Notes: a model not told the origin generated them from the sequence alone. A DNA stretch of 64,000 nt from an uncultured Alphaproteobacteria bacterium (GCA_963839725.1 CAWIWT010000043.1:1798-65797); one strand, 5' to 3'; counted from the stretch's first letter, positions 2,215 to 53,066 are shown. Made by a program: numbers and translations.

Positions 2215-4426
2215 GCGCGGTCGACGCTCTGAGGGCGGCCAAGGACGCCGGTGTCAGCGTCACGCTGGACGGCGGCGATCTGGTGTTGCACGCGTCCGCG
2301 GAGCCGCCGCACACTGTGCTCAGCGGGCTATCACGCCACAAGGCGGCCATTGTTGCACTCCTGCGGGGGAACGATTTATGGACCGCGCCAGCAGGCGAGC
2401 CGCGGCCGATCCCAATAAAAGAACTGATCGCCGCGGCTGTGGTCAACGGCACCACATTCTCTCTTTCTGGCGCCCATGTAAGGCTAGGTGGCACGCCCCC
2501 GCCGCCAAACATCCAGCGTGAACTGCGTGCGCGCCGCAAGGAAGTGTGGGACCACCTCGGCGGTGCGGCGCTTGACCAGCCTGCGTTAGAACTGATGGCT
2601 CACCTCGGCGTGGAAGCTGTTTTGGTGACCAACCCCGCGGAGGCTCTCGCTGCTCTTGGCAACGGCCCGCTCGGCGTCGACATCGAGACGGCCCACCGGC
2701 TGCCGCGGCCACCAGCTCGATTTACACGGCGCGGCGATCTCTCCGCTACCCAGCCCAAGTCCGATGATGAAGCAGGCCTAGACCCCCATCACGCCGAAAT
2801 TGCTACGCTGCAACTGTACGCCGGCGGCCAGCAAAGCTTTGTATTTCGAGGGGCGGCCATCACTTCGGAAGTGCGTCGGCGCGTCCTTCAGGGCAATTGC
2901 ATTGTCCACAACGCTGCATTCGAACTCGCCTTTTTTAGGCACCACTGGGGCGCCTTCCCTGTTCAATTCGAATGCACGATGCAGGCAGCGGGCCTGCTAC
3001 TCGGGGTGCACCGCAGGGGCTTGGCGGACACCGCCTACGCCTGCATGGGCGTTAAGGTGCCCAAGGAGCTCCAGCGGTCCGATTGGGGTGCGGAGGAACT
3101 CTCGGCTGGCCAGATAGCATACGCTGCTGCCGACGCCGTCCTCGCCTACCGTCTTTGGCCGCGACTTAGCGAGGGTCTAAGGACAAAACAGCGATATCGC
3201 GCCTACGAACTCCAGCGGAACGTTATTCCGGCGGTCGTAGACATGCAGCTCCGCGGTATGGGCATGGACTTTGACGAACACGCTCGCCAGGTTGAGGAAT
3301 GGGACCGAGAACTGTCACAAGCGCGGCAGACTTTTGCCAACGAGACTCAATCGGCGCCTCCGTCAAAGCCTGACGACATCCGCAAGTGGTTGGAGACTGT
3401 GCTCGATGAGGAGGAGCGGCGCGCGTGGCCAACTACGAAGACCGGCAAGCTCTCCACCGCACGCAGCGATCTAGACCACCTGGCTGACAAGCCAGGTGCG
3501 CGTCCTCTGCTCAACATTCTGGCTAAGGAGAAGCTCAGATCGACCTTCGGCGCCAAACTCCGCAAGACGGTCAACTCCGTCACAGGCCGCTTACACACAC
3601 AGTATAATATTGCAGGTGCGAAGAGTGGCCGGTTCACGTCATCACGTCCTAACCTGCAGCAGTTGCCTGACGAAGCGAGCACCGGAGTTCAAGAAATGTA
3701 TCGTCGCACGCCCCGGCTATCTGCTGATCGCTTGCGACTGGTCAGCCGTGGAACTCCGAGCGGCCGCATGGGTAGCGGGAGACGCAGCACTTGCAGATGA
3801 GCTCAACTCCGGCCGCGATTTTCACCGGCAAACCGCTGCCGCAATGGCGAGCGTACCGATCGAACAGGTGACCGACGATCAGCGCCAGGCGGCAAAGGCA
3901 GTCGCATTCGGTTCAATCTATGGGATGGGAGCCTAAAGGTCTTGTTCATGCCTTGTGGAGCGGATACCAGGTCGAAATCAGCGAAGACGAGGCCCGCCAA
4001 AAGCTTGATCGCTTCTTTGCCAAATATCGGAAACTCAGGCTGTGGTGCCGCAGCCACGCCGAAAAGTGCAGACGCGAGGGCCTGGTCCGCATCGGGTGTG
4101 GGCGCGTTGTTGAAGAACGTTGGGAGCCGGGTGGTCTAAGCTACCCGCAGATGTGTAACCTCCCGATTCAGGGTATTTGCGCCGACGCTCTGATGCGCGC
4201 GATCATCCTTGTGAACGATCGTCTGGAAGAGGCTGGAATTGGCGGCGGCTTGGTTGCCGCAGTGCACGATGAACTATTGATCGAAGTGCCGGAGGGTGAC
4301 GCGGAACGAGCTCGCGACATCCTTGAGCGGAGCATGGTGGACGCTTTCGTAGATACCTTTCCTGGGGCCCAGACCAACGGCCTCGCAGTCGCGAAGATCG
4401 GCCGAACTTGGGCCGACGTGAAATAG
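2211..4426 (+). pseudogene. Family A DNA polymerase with 3'-5' exonuclease domain and no 5'-3' nuclease; two +1 frameshifts near 3670 and 3930
   Basis: Exo motifs GVDIET, HNAAFE and YAAADA; SSRPNLQQLP; motif A DWSAVELR; motif B RQAAKAVAFGSIYG; NLPIQG; motif C VHDELL. These lie across ORFs 2082-3800, 3496-3936 and 3920-4426. ATG 2211 overlaps the helicase stop. Confidence 0.88.
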
Positions 4427-49488: not shown

Positions 49489-50514
49489 ATGTCAGTGATC
49501 AGAGCCAAGCCCATCGTTGCGCTTCTCGCGGCAGCCGAAACATCGGCGTCGGTTCTGTATGGACTCTACGACGTGCTTTTTTCGGTCGGAATAGCCTATC
49601 CTGACATGACTACCGGCGAGACAGGCGACGCGCTGCTCGATGTGAAAATTGTAGCCGCCGAGAAGGCGCCTTTCCGGTGCTTCGGCAATATCCTCGTAGA
49701 GCCGCACGCTGCCATTGGAGAAGTCGATCGGGTCGATGTTGCCGTTGTCTGTGACATGTACACACCAACCGACACCGTTCCGAACGGCCGTTACCTGCGC
49801 GAGATCAGTTGGCTCAAGCGCATGCATGCGAGCGGGTCGCTCGTTGGGTCGGTTTGCACAGGTTCCTTGATGCTGGCGGATGCCGGACTTCTGGACGGCC
49901 GCGAATGTGCGGCGCATTGGGCCTATCGAGATCTCATTCGCGAACACTATGCCAAGGTAAAGTTCAACGAACGATCGATCCTCAACCTTACGGCAGAAGC
50001 CGAGGGCATAGTTACCGCAGGCGGCGTCACTGCCTGGCAGGACCTTGCCCTTCACCTCATTGCTCGACTTTGCGGCAAGGGACACGCGATAAAGACTGCC
50101 AAAGTCCATCTTTTGGCGGGACACGAAGACGGACAATTGCCTTTCTCGGCAATGAATCGGCAAATCCAGAAAGGCGACGCGCTTATCGGCCGATGCCAAG
50201 AGTGGATTGCCGACAACTACTCGAGTTTGAATCCTGTCGCGGCAATGGCGAAACAATCAGGTCTCCAACAACGGACATTCGGTCGTCGTTTCCGGTCGGC
50301 TACTGGGTATCTGCCCATCGAGTACGTTCACGCGCTTCGTATCGAGGAAGCCAAGCAGATGTTCGAAACAGAAAGCGTGGCTATTGAAGAGGTCGGGTAC
50401 AAGGTCGGGTACGAGGATCCGAGCTTTTTCAGGCGCCTTTTTAAGCGAAAGACAGGGCTAACACCGGCCGCCTACCGGCGGAAATTTCCGGCGTTTCAGA
50501 GGCCGCATATGTGA
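49489..50514 (+). CDS. GlxA-family (DJ-1 + AraC) regulator, divergent from the oxidase
   Basis: SVCTGSLMLADAGLLDG, HW, C-terminal HTH VGYEDPSFFRRLFKR. Confidence 0.88.
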   Translation: MSVIRAKPIVALLAAAETSASVLYGLYDVLFSVGIAYPDMTTGETGDALLDVKIVAAEKAPFRCFGNILVEPHAAIGEVDRVDVAVVCDMYTPTDTVPNGRYLREISWLKRMHASGSLVGSVCTGSLMLADAGLLDGRECAAHWAYRDLIREHYAKVKFNERSILNLTAEAEGIVTAGGVTAWQDLALHLIARLCGKGHAIKTAKVHLLAGHEDGQLPFSAMNRQIQKGDALIGRCQEWIADNYSSLNPVAAMAKQSGLQQRTFGRRFRSATGYLPIEYVHALRIEEAKQMFETESVAIEEVGYKVGYEDPSFFRRLFKRKTGLTPAAYRRKFPAFQRPHM

Positions 50515-51059
50515 AATTGATTGAGCATCGGAGGGATTGGCTTCAACTCAACTTTTTCGTAGCGGATCAGTCTCCAACGTCGGCTTATGGCGCGCAACGT
50601 CTGCTTTTGGGCAGTGGCAAAGGCGCATTGAACGGCCGATTTGCGGCCTCGTTCGCTTGTGAGAGAGTGAGCGACCGCTATCGGCGGATAAGTTGAAAAA
50701 GTCGTTGTTGCTGTCGGTTTGAAGTCCTGATTCAGTGTTTCCGTGATCTGGAGGGCATGCCGATGATAGTGAGCGGACAGTGATGCGGGGAACGCTGTTC
50801 TGCGAGTTCAGCATCGAGGGTCATGTGCCTGCCGACCATCCGCTTCGTCGACCTGTCCGGTCTGCGCTCCCATCTGCGGCCATTCTATAGCGAGATCGGC
50901 AGGCCTTCGATCGATCCGGAACTGATGATCCGGATGCTGATCGTAGGCTACTGCTTCGGCATCCGCTCGGAGCGGCGGCTGTGCGAACAGGTCCATCTCA
51001 ATCTCGCCTATCGTTGGTTTCTTTAGGCGGGCATGTGTCAACCTCTTTCTCTGTCGGGG

Positions 51060-51225
51060 TAGAACGAAGCGGCCGGACGAGTTCAGGCTTCTTTGCGTGC
51101 TCGGCACCGACGGTGCCGGCGGACAGGATGGGTTGAGAAGGATCGAACGGCCTAGCTCTGCCTCGCGATCGGACGGCGAATGCCGAACCGTCGCAACCAG
51201 CGATACGGGCTCGTCCGACCCTCGC
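51060..51225 (-). ncRNA. Predicted bridge/seek RNA of the IS1111-type element (boundaries approximate)
   Basis: Closing stem CGGACGAG/CTCGTCCG encloses two internal loops whose strands match the target and donor junctions (see findings). Confidence 0.75.
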
Positions 51226-51295
51226 ACCCTCCCGGGCGCTCCGCTCCGCCGCGACGGCGGAACCTAAAGGTTCGATTGCTACATCGCGCTGGTCG

Positions 51296-52351
51296 CTACG
51301 CTGCGACTGCGGTGGTCGATCCGGCAGCACCTGACCAGCGGAATTCGGTGCCATCGGTCCACATTCGATGCATGATGACGGCGAGCCTGCGGGCGAGAGC
51401 CACCTTCGCGACTTTCACGTTGCCTCGCTTCGCCAGCCGCATGGCCCATGACCTCAGAGAGGACCAGGAACCGTGATGGAAAAGAACGTGAGCTGCCTGG
51501 TAAAGGGCGGTGCGGACCATCTCATCACCACAGCGGCTGATGCGGCCGTCGAAGTCTGTCTGTCCGGAGCTGTAGCGCTTCGGCGTCAAGCCGAAGTGCG
51601 CTCCGACATCTCTTGATCTGGAAAATCGCTCAGGTGCGTCGACGCCGGTACGATAGGTCAGCGCCACAACTACTCCGACGCCGGGTATCGTCATCAGCCG
51701 ACGACAAACTGGATCGCGCCGCGCCAGCTGTCGGCACATACGATCGAGGCACTCAAATGCTTCGATCATCGTCTGGCGAACGCGCAGCATAGGCTCTGTG
51801 ATCGCTGATAGGATCGGGTGATCCGCTACGAGCTCCAGGACGCGCTCCTCGAACGCCCGGCGCGTGACGATTCCGATCCGAAGCCCGAACACCTTCAGCG
51901 ACCCACGCACGGCGTTCTCGATGTCGTGCGCCTTATTCAAGAGTTGCTGGCGATTGACCAGCGCCATGCGAACTTGCTGCGCTTCCTCGCTCTTGATGTG
52001 GACCTGCCTAAACCATCCAAGTCGGAGAAGGTGAGCGATACCTCGCGCGTCGTTGCGGTCAGTCTTGTTCCTCATCGCGCTGAGACCTGCCTTCACATGC
52101 CGACATTCGAGACAGATTGCTGGATATCCAGCTTCTCGCAGCGCGCTATAAATCCATGCCGACGTTGGGCCAGCTTCCAAGCCGACGCGCTTGAAAGGTT
52201 GACCGAACCTCCTCAGCAGATCCGTGATAACCGTCGGCTCGGCTTCTACCTTCCGTTCGAGCAAGACGTCTCCGGTGTCATTGACGATGCAGACGTTCAC
52301 CGTATCCAGTGACACATCCAGGCCAGCAAAATAGTCCATCATCCTCTCCAT
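51296..52351 (-). CDS. IS110-family DEDD recombinase/transposase, intact
   Basis: GLDVS, GLEAG, KTDRNDA (DEDD); FGLTPKRYSSG (Tnp-domain serine); ISRCGD. Confidence 0.95.
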   Translation of the reverse strand: MERMMDYFAGLDVSLDTVNVCIVNDTGDVLLERKVEAEPTVITDLLRRFGQPFKRVGLEAGPTSAWIYSALREAGYPAICLECRHVKAGLSAMRNKTDRNDARGIAHLLRLGWFRQVHIKSEEAQQVRMALVNRQQLLNKAHDIENAVRGSLKVFGLRIGIVTRRAFEERVLELVADHPILSAITEPMLRVRQTMIEAFECLDRMCRQLARRDPVCRRLMTIPGVGVVVALTYRTGVDAPERFSRSRDVGAHFGLTPKRYSSGQTDFDGRISRCGDEMVRTALYQAAHVLFHHGSWSSLRSWAMRLAKRGNVKVAKVALARRLAVIMHRMWTDGTEFRWSGAAGSTTAVAA

Positions 52352-53066
52352 GGCAGATGTTGCGGTTCAAGTCGCACAGTGCAGTCTCGCCCCAGCGCGA
52401 CCGCCCGCCTACTCCATTCTGCCGGCACGGGCTGGAAGGCGATGTGCCTGACCACTCGACCTTCTCGAAGAATCGGCATGGCCGCTTCCGCGATGGCGAT
52501 CTACTGCGCGAGCTCGCTGCTGTCCGAACGCGCCCGCCCGCAAGATCTTGCACTCCGTCCACGAAGGTGCGCGTGACATGGCCCGCGATATCGCCACCAC
52601 CGACGCCTACGTCACTTTCCGACGGGAGCGAAAGAAGGTCGAGATGCTGTTTGCGCATCTCAAGCGCATCCTGAAGCTCGGCCGCCTGCGACTACGAAGA
52701 CCTAACAGCGCCCGAGACGAGTTCCATCTGGCAGCCACAGCTCAAACCTCCGCAAATTCGCAAAAATCATTCCGGTCCCAATAGCGAACCCGGCATGAGA
52801 AGGGCCGCGCATCGACGCGCCCAAAATCGCCGACCCAATCCCGCAACCACGCGCGCCGGCTATTTCGGCTGTGTGGGACTTGGCAACTGCCTCTCGCGCG
52901 TCCTGAGTCATCTCTGTGGCGCTGAGGGCCATTCTAGGCGTGGACAGCAGCGCGAAGCTTGTTCGAACTGAACTCTATCGAAGGCTGAGCCAATTGTGTT
53001 TGCCGACCGGACCGAAAAAGTGTTCAAGTTGGTTGGCGGGGGCGATTAAATCGTCGTGGAGAAAAA

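What the first reader, a model, noticed from the sequence alone, without database searches (positions are those of the whole stretch)
51023..51295. Decodable bridge/seek RNA: two guide loops match the insertion target and the element's own junction
Seen in sequence (element strand, minus): an 8-bp stem CGGACGAG/CTCGTCCG (51210-51217 with 51074-51081) encloses two internal loops. Loop 1: TATCGCTGGTT (51195-51205), then a hairpin GCGA-CGG...CCG..TCGC, then GGCAGAGC (51155-51162). The rebuilt empty site is TATCGTTGG-TTCT-GCC; the first segment matches its top strand at 10/11 and the second matches its bottom strand GGCAGAAC at 7/8. Loop 2: CCCATCCT (51125-51132), then a perfect hairpin CGGCACC-GTC-GGTGCCG (51102-51118), then AAAGAA (51089-51094). 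The joined element ends read CTCCA-TTCT-TTAGG; CCATCCT matches CCATTCT at 6/7 and AAAGAA matches the bottom strand exactly. Established: IS110/IS1111 recombinases use a non-coding RNA with target- and donor-binding loops, located 3' of the gene in IS1111-type elements. Inference: this is a complete, apparently intact programmable recombinase system whose guides can be read directly.
Basis: partly seen in the sequence, partly recalled or inferred. Interest (0 to 1): 0.88.

Follow-up and report, generated by a model that had tools for sequence, protein, structure and literature searches.

The report
IS1111-type bridge RNA, mostly decoded correctly
This is an ordinary member of the known RNA-guided IS110/IS1111 insertion sequences: the non-coding tail after its recombinase gene encodes a bridge (seek) RNA, whose guides aim the element at a conserved codon motif in the transposase gene of another mobile element (IS1182).

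Summary
The quoted sequences sit at the stated coordinates. The element (about 51020-52418, minus strand) is an IS110-family, IS1111-group insertion sequence nested in a decayed IS1182 transposase gene. NCBIfam already names its protein "IS110 family RNA-guided transposase".

About 20 homologues from other Alphaproteobacteria occupy the same site. More distant homologues with other targets show that both target guides co-vary with their flanks (permutation p ≤1e-5 and 5e-5). The 3' donor guide tracks the right-end tail in 19 of 19 elements.

Three details are wrong:
- The 8-bp closing stem is not conserved (74% paired, no compensatory change). A 15-bp stem closes the target loop, and an outer stem places the donor guides in a multiloop.
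- The crossover core is a dinucleotide (donor AG, target AA), not TTCT.
- "Intact" is unproven. This copy lacks one base at its left junction, is single-copy, and leaves 11 matching sites unoccupied.

The window's matches alone are weak (10/11 is reached by 13% of shuffles). Verdict: new member of a known kind, moderate-to-low interest.

The parts
52419..52425 (-). Left target half (CCGGCAG) in the interrupted IS1182 transposase gene.
   Evidence: Flank alignment with 15 uninterrupted paralogues. The TBL 3' guide GGCAG matches it.
52412..52418 (-). Left end of the element: one A left over from the core, then ATGGAG. All homologues read AG-ATGGAG, so this copy is one base short.
52403..52411 (-). 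Left subterminal inverted repeat, TAGGCGGGC.
   Evidence: Exact reverse complement of 51024-51032. Found in the same place in homologues.
51296..52351 (-). IS110-family DEDD recombinase gene. The ORF is 351 aa, and the likely start is the ATG at 52339 (347 aa). Catalytic D12, E59, D98, D101 and S262 are present.
   Evidence: Pfam PF01548 + PF02371. NCBIfam NF033542 at 241 bits. Alignment to the IS621 and ISCro4 structures. Motif positions.
51245..51261 (-). 5' hairpin, UCCGCC-GUCGC-GGCGGA.
   Evidence: Helix 1, 97% paired in 15 homologues.
51227..51239 (-). Outer stem, 5' strand (GCGCCCGGGAGGG).
   Evidence: Helix 2: 95% paired, 4 compensatory pairs. Recovered across subfamilies.
51208..51223 (-). 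Stem closing the target-binding loop, 5' strand.
   Evidence: Helix 3: 97% paired, 5 compensatory pairs. Present in the window's minimum-energy fold.
51195..51205 (-). Target-binding loop, 5' guide UAUCGCUGG-UU. It has the same sense as the + strand target TATCG(C/T)TGG-TT.
   Evidence: 10/11 to the occupied site and 11/11 to the paralogue consensus. Covaries with flanks in 19 elements, p ≤1e-5.
51165..51194 (-). Hairpin inside the target-binding loop.
   Evidence: Helix 4: 8 pairs with compensatory change.
51155..51162 (-). Target-binding loop, 3' guide GGCAG-AG-C. It matches the left target plus the donor-type core AG, and pairs with the target core through one G:T wobble.
   Evidence: Covariation p = 5e-5.
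51138..51152 (-). Stem closing the target-binding loop, 3' strand.
   Evidence: helix 3.
51125..51132 (-). Donor 5' guide region CCCAUCCU. The CCAU-C part matches the reverse complement of the left end ATGG plus the first core base.
   Evidence: Invariant in the close family. The 3-6 nt next to the core change together with the left end across subfamilies. This is the weakest of the four guides.
51099..51120 (-). Hairpin between the donor guides.
   Evidence: Helix 5: 96% paired, 5 compensatory pairs.
51086..51094 (-). Donor 3' guide AAAGA-AG-CC: right-end tail, then core AG, then two bases matching the first target bases (CC), like a handshake guide.
   Evidence: The A/G at the first tail position tracks the right-end tail AAGA/GAGA in 19 of 19 elements.
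51069..51081 (-). Outer stem, 3' strand.
   Evidence: helix 2.
51036..51041 (-). TTGACA in the right end, conserved in all homologues. It is a likely -35 box of a promoter completed only in the circular form.
   Evidence: Alignment. The junction promoter is known for IS621 (PMC11208158). For this element it is an inference.
51024..51032 (-). Right subterminal inverted repeat, GCCCGCCTA.
51018..51023 (-). Right-end tail AAGA (51023-51020) and target-type core AA (51019-51018).
   Evidence: The family anatomy is repeat + (A/G)AGA + core.
51009..51017 (-). Right target half, CCAACGATA (+ strand TATCGTTGG, codons Y-R-W of the IS1182 transposase).
   Evidence: The host IS is identified by NCBIfam NF033551 at 427 bits.

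Best explanation
The element at about 51020-52418 (minus strand) is an IS1111-group member of the IS110 family. Its recombinase gene is followed by about 270 nt of non-coding DNA that encodes a bridge (seek) RNA.

The fold, shown by covariation, has these parts:
- a 5' hairpin;
- an outer stem;
- a long arm whose internal loop carries the two target guides on either side of a hairpin;
- inside the multiloop, a single-stranded donor 5' guide, a second hairpin and the donor 3' guide.

The guides, shown by matches and covariation:
- The 5' target guide UAUCGCUGG-UU pairs with one strand of TATCGCTGG-TT.
- The 3' target guide GGCAG-AG pairs with the other strand of TT-CTGCC, using one G:T wobble.
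- Together they aim the element at the Y-R-W-F-C codons of IS1182-family transposase genes.
- The donor 3' guide AAAGA-AG-CC reads the right end plus the core, then two bases of the incoming target.
- The donor 5' guide CCAU-C reads the first bases of the left end.

Read on the window's + strand, this is the same logic as IS621: left guide 5', right guide 3', a YT core, and handshake bases.

Inferred, not shown:
- The RNA is made, probably from the recombinase transcript or from a promoter completed at the circle junction (TTGACA in the right end).
- The RNA binds the recombinase.
- This particular copy can still move.
For: Protein:
- Pfam DEDD_Tnp_IS110 + Transposase_20.
- NF033542 'IS110 family RNA-guided transposase', 241 bits against a cut-off of 140.
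- The catalytic D, E, D, D and S residues align with IS621 and ISCro4.

Anatomy:
- 9-bp subterminal inverted repeats.
- The long non-coding region is 3' of the gene.

Site specificity:
- About 20 homologues (70-94% aa) lie at the same site in the same host IS.
- Elements that are 96-98% identical sit in flanks only 65-81% identical, so these are independent insertions.

Guide-to-flank covariation:
- In 19 elements with different targets, guide 1 matches 6.16/8 for cognate flanks against 4.63 for non-cognate, p ≤1e-5.
- Guide 2 matches 6.16 against 5.41, p = 5e-5.
- Individual cases reach 10/10 + 10/10 (L094) and 13/13 (L091).
- The donor 3' guide tracks the right-end tail in 19 of 19 elements.

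Fold:
- 94.7% of cells are paired, 23 pairs show compensatory change, and 0 of 500 shuffles reach this.
- The same helices are recovered across subfamilies at about 50% aa identity.

Literature:
- Durrant 2024 (PMC11208160) predicted 3' bridge RNAs in 93% of IS1111 elements, often with the donor nucleotides in a multiloop.
- Siddiquee 2024 (PMC11187229) showed seekRNAs from the 3' non-coding region.
Against: - There are no expression or binding data.
- No Rfam family matches.
- The window's own matches are weak statistically.
- The 5' donor guide pairs with only 3-6 nt, and its second core position is mismatched in every subfamily.
- This copy lacks one base at the left junction.
- Its guide has a C:A mismatch with the site it occupies.
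- It is the only copy in a genome that holds 11 better, unoccupied sites.
Confidence: 0.85

Rival explanations
1. The RNA can be decoded, but this copy is a stranded relic. The missing base at the left junction, or another defect, prevents excision, so the system here is not functional even though the family is.
For: - The left junction reads GGCAGA-ATGGAG, against GGCAGAG-ATGGAG in all 20+ homologues, including the 94% identical Bosea vaviloviae copy.
- It is a single copy in the genome, with 11 unoccupied TATCGCTGGTTCTG sites.
- The host IS copy around it is itself decayed, with an internal deletion of about 730 bp.
Against: - The recombinase ORF is full length with all catalytic residues.
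- The RNA region differs from its closest relative mostly in hairpin positions that stay paired.
- Recent work on IS621 reports that excision needs donor arms only and tolerates flank mismatches (bioRxiv 10.64898/2026.08.31.748434), so one missing base may not be fatal.
- A low copy number can also mean recent arrival.
Confidence: 0.3
2. Only the target-binding arm is a functional RNA: a short seekRNA of roughly 90-110 nt. The element's own ends are recognised by the protein through the subterminal inverted repeats, so the 'donor loop' is not a guide.
For: - Siddiquee 2024 (PMC11187229) found that the predominant RNA bound to IS1111 transposases is 82-96 nt and holds only the two target-matching segments.
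- The 5' donor guide here is short, with a constant core mismatch.
- The subterminal repeats are conserved.
Against: - The donor 3' guide matches the right-end tail plus core at 7/7 and tracks the AAGA/GAGA change in 19 of 19 elements, with switches inside two separate subfamilies.
- The outer stem and the donor hairpin keep pairing through many compensatory changes across subfamilies. This is not expected of DNA that is not part of a structured RNA.
- Four aberrant junctions in homologues carry AG at the core position, and three of them continue with CC, which matches the donor 3' guide.
Confidence: 0.15
3. The matches are chance. The conserved non-coding region is only a 3' UTR, a terminator or a protein-binding end sequence.
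For: - In this window alone, a 10/11 match is reached by 13% of shuffles.
- The donor matches are only 6-7 nt.
- There is no Rfam hit.
Against: - Cognate-versus-non-cognate covariation of both target guides.
- The guides sit at a fixed position next to the same hairpin in every subfamily.
- Structural covariation.
Confidence: 0.02

Closest known systems
IS1111-group elements with a 3' seekRNA or bridge RNA: ISEc11, ISPa11, ISKpn4, ISPst6 (Siddiquee et al. 2024, PMC11187229); the predicted IS1111 bridge RNAs of Durrant et al. 2024 (PMC11208160)
   Same: - DEDD recombinase of 330-350 aa with the GL-P----SG motif.
- Subterminal inverted repeats.
- A long non-coding region downstream of the gene.
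- Two short segments matching opposite strands of the target and overlapping at the crossover.
- Donor nucleotides in a multiloop.
   Different: - The target is different: the Y-R-W-F-C codons of IS1182-family transposase genes, rather than REP elements, attC sites or Tn21 ends.
- The donor core (AG) and the target core (AA) differ, bridged by a G:T wobble.
- Nothing has been tested experimentally for this element.
IS621 bridge RNA (Durrant 2024; Hiraizumi 2024, PMC11208158)
   Same: - Each loop has a 5' guide for one strand and a 3' guide for the other, overlapping a dinucleotide core whose second base is T (read on the window's + strand).
- Bases after the 3' guide match the partner DNA, like handshake guides.
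- There is a -35 box in the end that would be completed at the circle junction.
   Different: - The RNA lies 3' of the gene and, relative to the gene, in the mirrored orientation.
- The donor guides are in a multiloop, not an internal loop.
- The subterminal repeats are long (9 bp).
- The recombinase aligns with IS621 over only part of its length, with a best match to residues 189-337 at E = 5e-13.
[quoted passage not shown]
   Same: An IS1111-type element whose natural target lies inside another mobile element.
   Different: Here the target is a coding motif inside the other element's transposase gene, so each insertion inactivates that gene. A second IS110-family lineage in the same genome does sit at the IS1182 end.

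Membership tests
IS110 family, IS1111 group | DEDD (RuvC-like) N-terminal domain plus the PF02371 C-terminal domain with a catalytic Ser in the GL-P----S/TG motif. | tested here: met
   - PF01548 at E = 2.8e-18 and PF02371 at E = 1.6e-20.
- NF033542 at 241 bits against a cut-off of 140.
- D12, E59, D98, D101 and GLTPKRYSSG with S262, aligned to IS621 and ISCro4.
IS110 family, IS1111 group | Subterminal inverted repeats of 7-17 bp. | tested here: met
   TAGGCGGGC (52411-52403) and GCCCGCCTA (51032-51024). They lie 6 nt and 4 nt inside the core positions. Homologues have them in the same place.
IS110 family, IS1111 group | The longer non-coding region lies downstream of the recombinase gene. | tested here: met
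   About 276 nt lie 3' of the stop codon (51295-51020), against about 67-79 nt 5' of the start.
IS110 family, IS1111 group | Sequence-specific insertion without a conventional target duplication. | tested here: met
   - The same site is used in more than 20 homologues.
- Independent insertions are shown by element identity of 96-98% against flank identity of 65-81%.
- Only the core dinucleotide flanks both ends.
Bridge RNA / seekRNA | A target-binding loop with two guides complementary to opposite strands of the target, overlapping at the core. | tested here: met
   UAUCGCUGG-UU and GGCAG-AG lie on either side of a hairpin inside a stem-closed loop.
Bridge RNA / seekRNA | The guides co-vary with the flanking target among homologues. 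| tested here: met
   In 19 elements with distinct targets, permutation p ≤1e-5 for guide 1 and 5e-5 for guide 2.
Bridge RNA / seekRNA | A donor-binding part with guides complementary to the joined element ends. | tested here: inconclusive
   - The 3' guide AAAGA-AG matches the right end plus core at 7/7 and tracks the tail in 19 of 19 elements.
- The 5' guide pairs with only 3-6 nt, and its second core position is always mismatched.
Bridge RNA / seekRNA | A conserved secondary structure supported by compensatory changes. | tested here: met
   - Five helices, 94.7% paired, 23 pairs with compensatory change, 0 of 500 shuffles reach this.
- The helices are recovered across subfamilies.
Bridge RNA / seekRNA | The RNA is transcribed and bound by the recombinase, and reprogramming the guides redirects insertion. 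| not testable with these tools
The rest needs bench work.
Rfam families | A match to a curated covariance model. | tested here: not met
   Nothing relevant matched, even at E ≤1. The only hit is a sub-threshold skipping-rope match inside the coding region. No model in this Rfam copy matched the non-coding region.

The most novel reading that the evidence does not exclude
In this lineage the donor core (AG) differs from the target core (AA), so each insertion records which strand's core was inherited.

All 16 canonical insertions I could read carry the donor core at the left junction and the target core at the right junction. These insertions include at least 8 that sit in clearly diverged flanks. 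The reverse arrangement never appears.

A two-strand exchange staggered across the core should leave heteroduplex DNA and give both arrangements after replication. The one-sided outcome would be natural evidence that IS1111-type elements fix the information of one strand only. That would fit single-strand transfer or copy-and-paste, as recently argued for IS621 and CazIS110.

The lineage is also a dedicated 'IS that kills another IS' by cutting into its transposase gene.
Probability: 0.25. Interest if true: 0.55.

Novelty: new member of a known kind. Interest (0 to 1): 0.35.

Why it matters
It adds a well-documented natural example to the RNA-guided IS110/IS1111 recombinases. The fold is supported by covariation, all four guide segments are located, and a set of homologues with varied targets is available.

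Three features may interest specialists:
- The target is a conserved codon motif inside another insertion sequence's transposase gene, so the element acts as a parasite, or natural antagonist, of IS1182.
- The donor and target cores differ and are bridged by a wobble pair.
- The junctions always inherit the cores in one arrangement, which bears on the cut-and-paste versus copy-and-paste debate.

None of this changes the known picture of how these systems work.

Tried and rejected
- **Rfam scan of 50500-53000 at E ≤1:** no bridge-RNA family. The only hit is a chance-level skipping-rope match in the coding region.
- **Promoter and terminator scan of 50900-52600:** nothing found. The integrated copy shows no obvious own promoter for the RNA.
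- **Unrestricted best-match test of guides against flanks over the whole non-coding region:** the signal is present but noisy (p = 3e-4 and 6e-3, and lost for guide 2 when wobble is allowed). It was replaced by a position-restricted test.
tested and rejected as the conserved structure.
- **A 4-nt TTCT core or duplication:** rejected, because the left junction has one base too many for it and the paralogues fix the empty site.
- **The 3-nt shorter spacer between TTGACA and the right repeat as a defect:** rejected. The closest relative, on the Bosea vaviloviae plasmid, shares it.
- **All same-site copies descending from one ancient nested insertion:** rejected for several pairs, where the elements are far more alike than their flanks.
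- **A long-distance handshake match for the target loop:** the base after GGCAG-AG (C) does not match the left end (A) in this lineage, unlike the betaproteobacterial subfamily, where CAT matches.

Full report
**What is there**

On the minus strand, an ORF at 52351-51296 encodes a 351-aa protein with Pfam DEDD_Tnp_IS110 and Transposase_20 domains. It matches NCBIfam NF033542, "IS110 family RNA-guided transposase", at 241 bits against a cut-off of 140. Alignment with the solved IS621 and ISCro4 recombinases places the catalytic residues at D12, E59, D98, D101 and S262, inside GLTPKRYSSG.

The gene is flanked by 9-bp subterminal inverted repeats: TAGGCGGGC at 52411-52403 and GCCCGCCTA at 51032-51024. 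About 276 nt of non-coding DNA follow it. This is the anatomy of the IS1111 group as described by Siddiquee et al. (PMC11187229) and Durrant et al. (PMC11208160).

**Host and empty site**

The element interrupts a DUF772 transposase gene. An intact paralogue scores 427 bits on NF033551, the IS1182-family transposase model. The joined flanks align without a gap to 15 uninterrupted paralogues in the same genome.

Most paralogues read TATCGCTGGTT. Guide 1 is thus a perfect 11-mer for the family of targets, and has one C:A mismatch with the copy it actually occupies.

**The observation**

Every quoted string is at the stated coordinates. Taken alone, the matches are weak:
- 13% of dinucleotide shuffles of the non-coding region reach 10/11 against the 42-nt empty site.
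- 0.4% reach 11/11 against the consensus site.
- The donor matches (6/6 and 6/7) are too short to carry weight alone.

**Homologues**

A scan of one genome per species returned 80 loci. About 20 of them (70-83% aa) come from alphaproteobacterial MAGs, Mesorhizobium, Roseovarius, Poseidonocella and an Amaricoccus plasmid. A 93.8% identical copy lies on a Bosea vaviloviae plasmid. All of these are inserted at exactly the same place in the same IS family.

In element orientation the junctions read:
- left: GGCAG-AG-ATGGAG[TAGGCGGGC]
- right: [GCCCGCCTA]AAGA-AA-CCAGCGATA

Elements that are 96-98% identical sit in flanks that are only 65-81% identical. These are therefore independent insertions, not one inherited nesting.

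Across 53 loci with recognisable repeats, the family plan is:
- left end = core AG + 6 nt + repeat
- right end = repeat + (A/G)AGA + core

**Guide-target covariation**

More distant relatives (about 50% aa, mostly betaproteobacterial) insert into varied REP-like sites. In them:
- the segment just 5' of the first hairpin equals the reverse complement of core plus right flank;
- the segment just 3' of it equals left flank plus core plus the first 1-3 bases of the left end.

L094 matches 10/10 and 10/10, L091 matches 13/13, and L101, L112 and L117 match 10/10.

A position-restricted test of cognate against non-cognate flanks on 19 elements with distinct targets gives:

| Guide | Cognate (of 8) | Non-cognate | Permutation p |
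|---|---|---|---|
| Guide 1 | 6.16 | 4.63 | ≤1e-5 |
| Guide 2 | 6.16 | 5.41 | 5e-5 |

The best match falls at a constant offset.

**Donor guides**

- 3' guide: the segment after the second hairpin reads (A/G)AGA-AG-C. It follows the right-end tail (AAGA or GAGA) in 19 of 19 elements, with switches inside two separate subfamilies. In the window it is AAAGA-AG-CC: right-end tail, donor core, then two bases that match the first target bases. This is the position of the handshake guide in IS621 (PMC11208158).
- 5' guide: this is weaker. Only the 3-6 nt next to the core follow the left end (CCAT/ATGG here, ATG/CAT in the beta group, CAG/CTG in L078, CCCCAT/ATGGGG in L083). The second core position is mismatched in all of them.

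His 'joined ends' string is off by one base.

**Core**

The target core is AA, fixed by the Phe codon. The donor core is AG. The target 5' guide ends in UU, which matches the target core. Both 3' guides carry AG, which matches the donor core and wobbles on the target.

Read on the window's + strand, this is the IS621 scheme with a YT core. TTCT is not a 4-nt core, because the + strand left junction TGG-T-TTCT-TTAGG has one base too many for that model.

**Fold**

Across 15 homologues it is 74% paired, has no compensatory change, and two positions are unpaired in 12-13 sequences.
- RNAalifold and pair counting support five helices instead: a 5' hairpin, an outer stem (51239-51227 with 51081-51069), a 15-bp stem closing the target loop (51223-51208 with 51152-51138), and the two hairpins. 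Of these cells, 94.7% are paired, 23 pairs show compensatory change, and 0 of 500 shuffles reach this.
- The same helices reappear in an alignment spanning three subfamilies.
- The donor guides therefore lie in a multiloop, as Durrant et al. noted for many IS1111 elements.

**Is this copy intact?**

The gene and the RNA region look intact. Against that:
- The left junction reads GGCAGA-ATGGAG, one base short of every homologue, including the closest one.
- The element is single-copy.
- 11 TATCGCTGGTTCTG sites stand unoccupied in the same genome.

Whether the missing base blocks excision cannot be told from sequence.

**Comparison and verdict**

This works like the published IS1111 seekRNA and bridge RNA systems, and it passes the membership tests that sequence can address. 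RNA expression, binding and programmability remain untested. It is a new member of a known kind.

The closing stem, the 4-nt core, the circle-junction string and the word 'intact' need correction.

**Side observations**

- In all 16 canonical insertions the left junction carries the donor core and the right junction the target core, never the reverse.
- Several homologues carry truncated tandem copies or off-site junctions with AG at the core position, mostly followed by CC. This resembles the half-match recombination recently described for IS621 (bioRxiv 10.64898/2026.08.31.748434).
- A second IS110-family lineage in the same genome sits at the end of the same IS1182 family.

Noticed in passing
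L049-L073 and L129, both junctions; window 52417-52419 and 51018-51019: In all 16 canonical same-site insertions the left junction has the donor-type core AG and the right junction has the target-type core AA. The opposite arrangement never appears. A crossover staggered across the core should give both after replication, so the pattern hints at inheritance from one strand only.
   Followed up: partly
window 52417-52419: The window's left junction lacks the G of the core: GGCAGA-ATGGAG against GGCAGAG-ATGGAG in every homologue. It could be a post-insertion deletion, an imprecise event or an assembly error. Reads could not be checked.
   Followed up: partly
L054, L055, L084 (about 2830-3048), L062 (about 2848-2956), L053 (about 2834-3409), L056 right flank: Aberrant right junctions. 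A complete element is followed directly by a truncated second copy that starts in its own guide-1 region, in the donor hairpin or in the recombinase gene. L056 instead joins an unrelated site. All four junction types read CCTAAAGA-AG, and three of them continue with CC, which matches the donor 3' guide AAAGAAGCC. This resembles the 'half-match' recombination reported for IS621.
   Followed up: partly
own genome C19:20695-21699, C35:389592-390596, C35:19955-20959, C7:362879-363883, C16:313697-314701, C20:9558-10562; window 50680-50705: A second IS110-family lineage (42% aa to this one, at least 6 near-identical copies) is inserted at GACTTTTTCA-AC-AA(A/T)ATCGGCGC. Four of the six copies lie at the end of an IS1182-family copy. 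Its 3' non-coding region holds matching guides (GCCGATACT-GT and TTTCA-AC). An unoccupied version of that site lies in the window at 50692-50703. The IS1182 family here is hit by two different RNA-guided IS lineages.
   Followed up: partly
own genome C19:51639-52655, C46:233725-234741, C20:6872-7886, C4:19409-20425: A third IS110-family lineage (about 50% aa). Some copies are frameshifted, and several lie next to IS1182 copies. Its target was not worked out. In all, tblastn matches to the recombinase occur on about 25 contigs of this 5.9-Mb genome.
   Followed up: no
window about 52514/52515: The IS1182 copy that hosts the element has lost about 730 bp of its transposase gene compared with its paralogues, so it was or became defective independently of the insertion.
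   Followed up: partly
window 51036-51041: TTGACA lies in the right end, 4-7 nt before the subterminal repeat, in all homologues. It is placed to act as a -35 box for a promoter completed by the left end in the circular form. The window and the Bosea vaviloviae copy share a spacer 3 nt shorter than the rest of the family.
   Followed up: partly
window 52337-52351: The ORF starts ATG GAG AGG ATG ATG. Homologues, and the annotated Bosea protein, start at the third ATG (52339), which is preceded by GGAGAGG. The real protein is probably 347 aa.
   Followed up: partly
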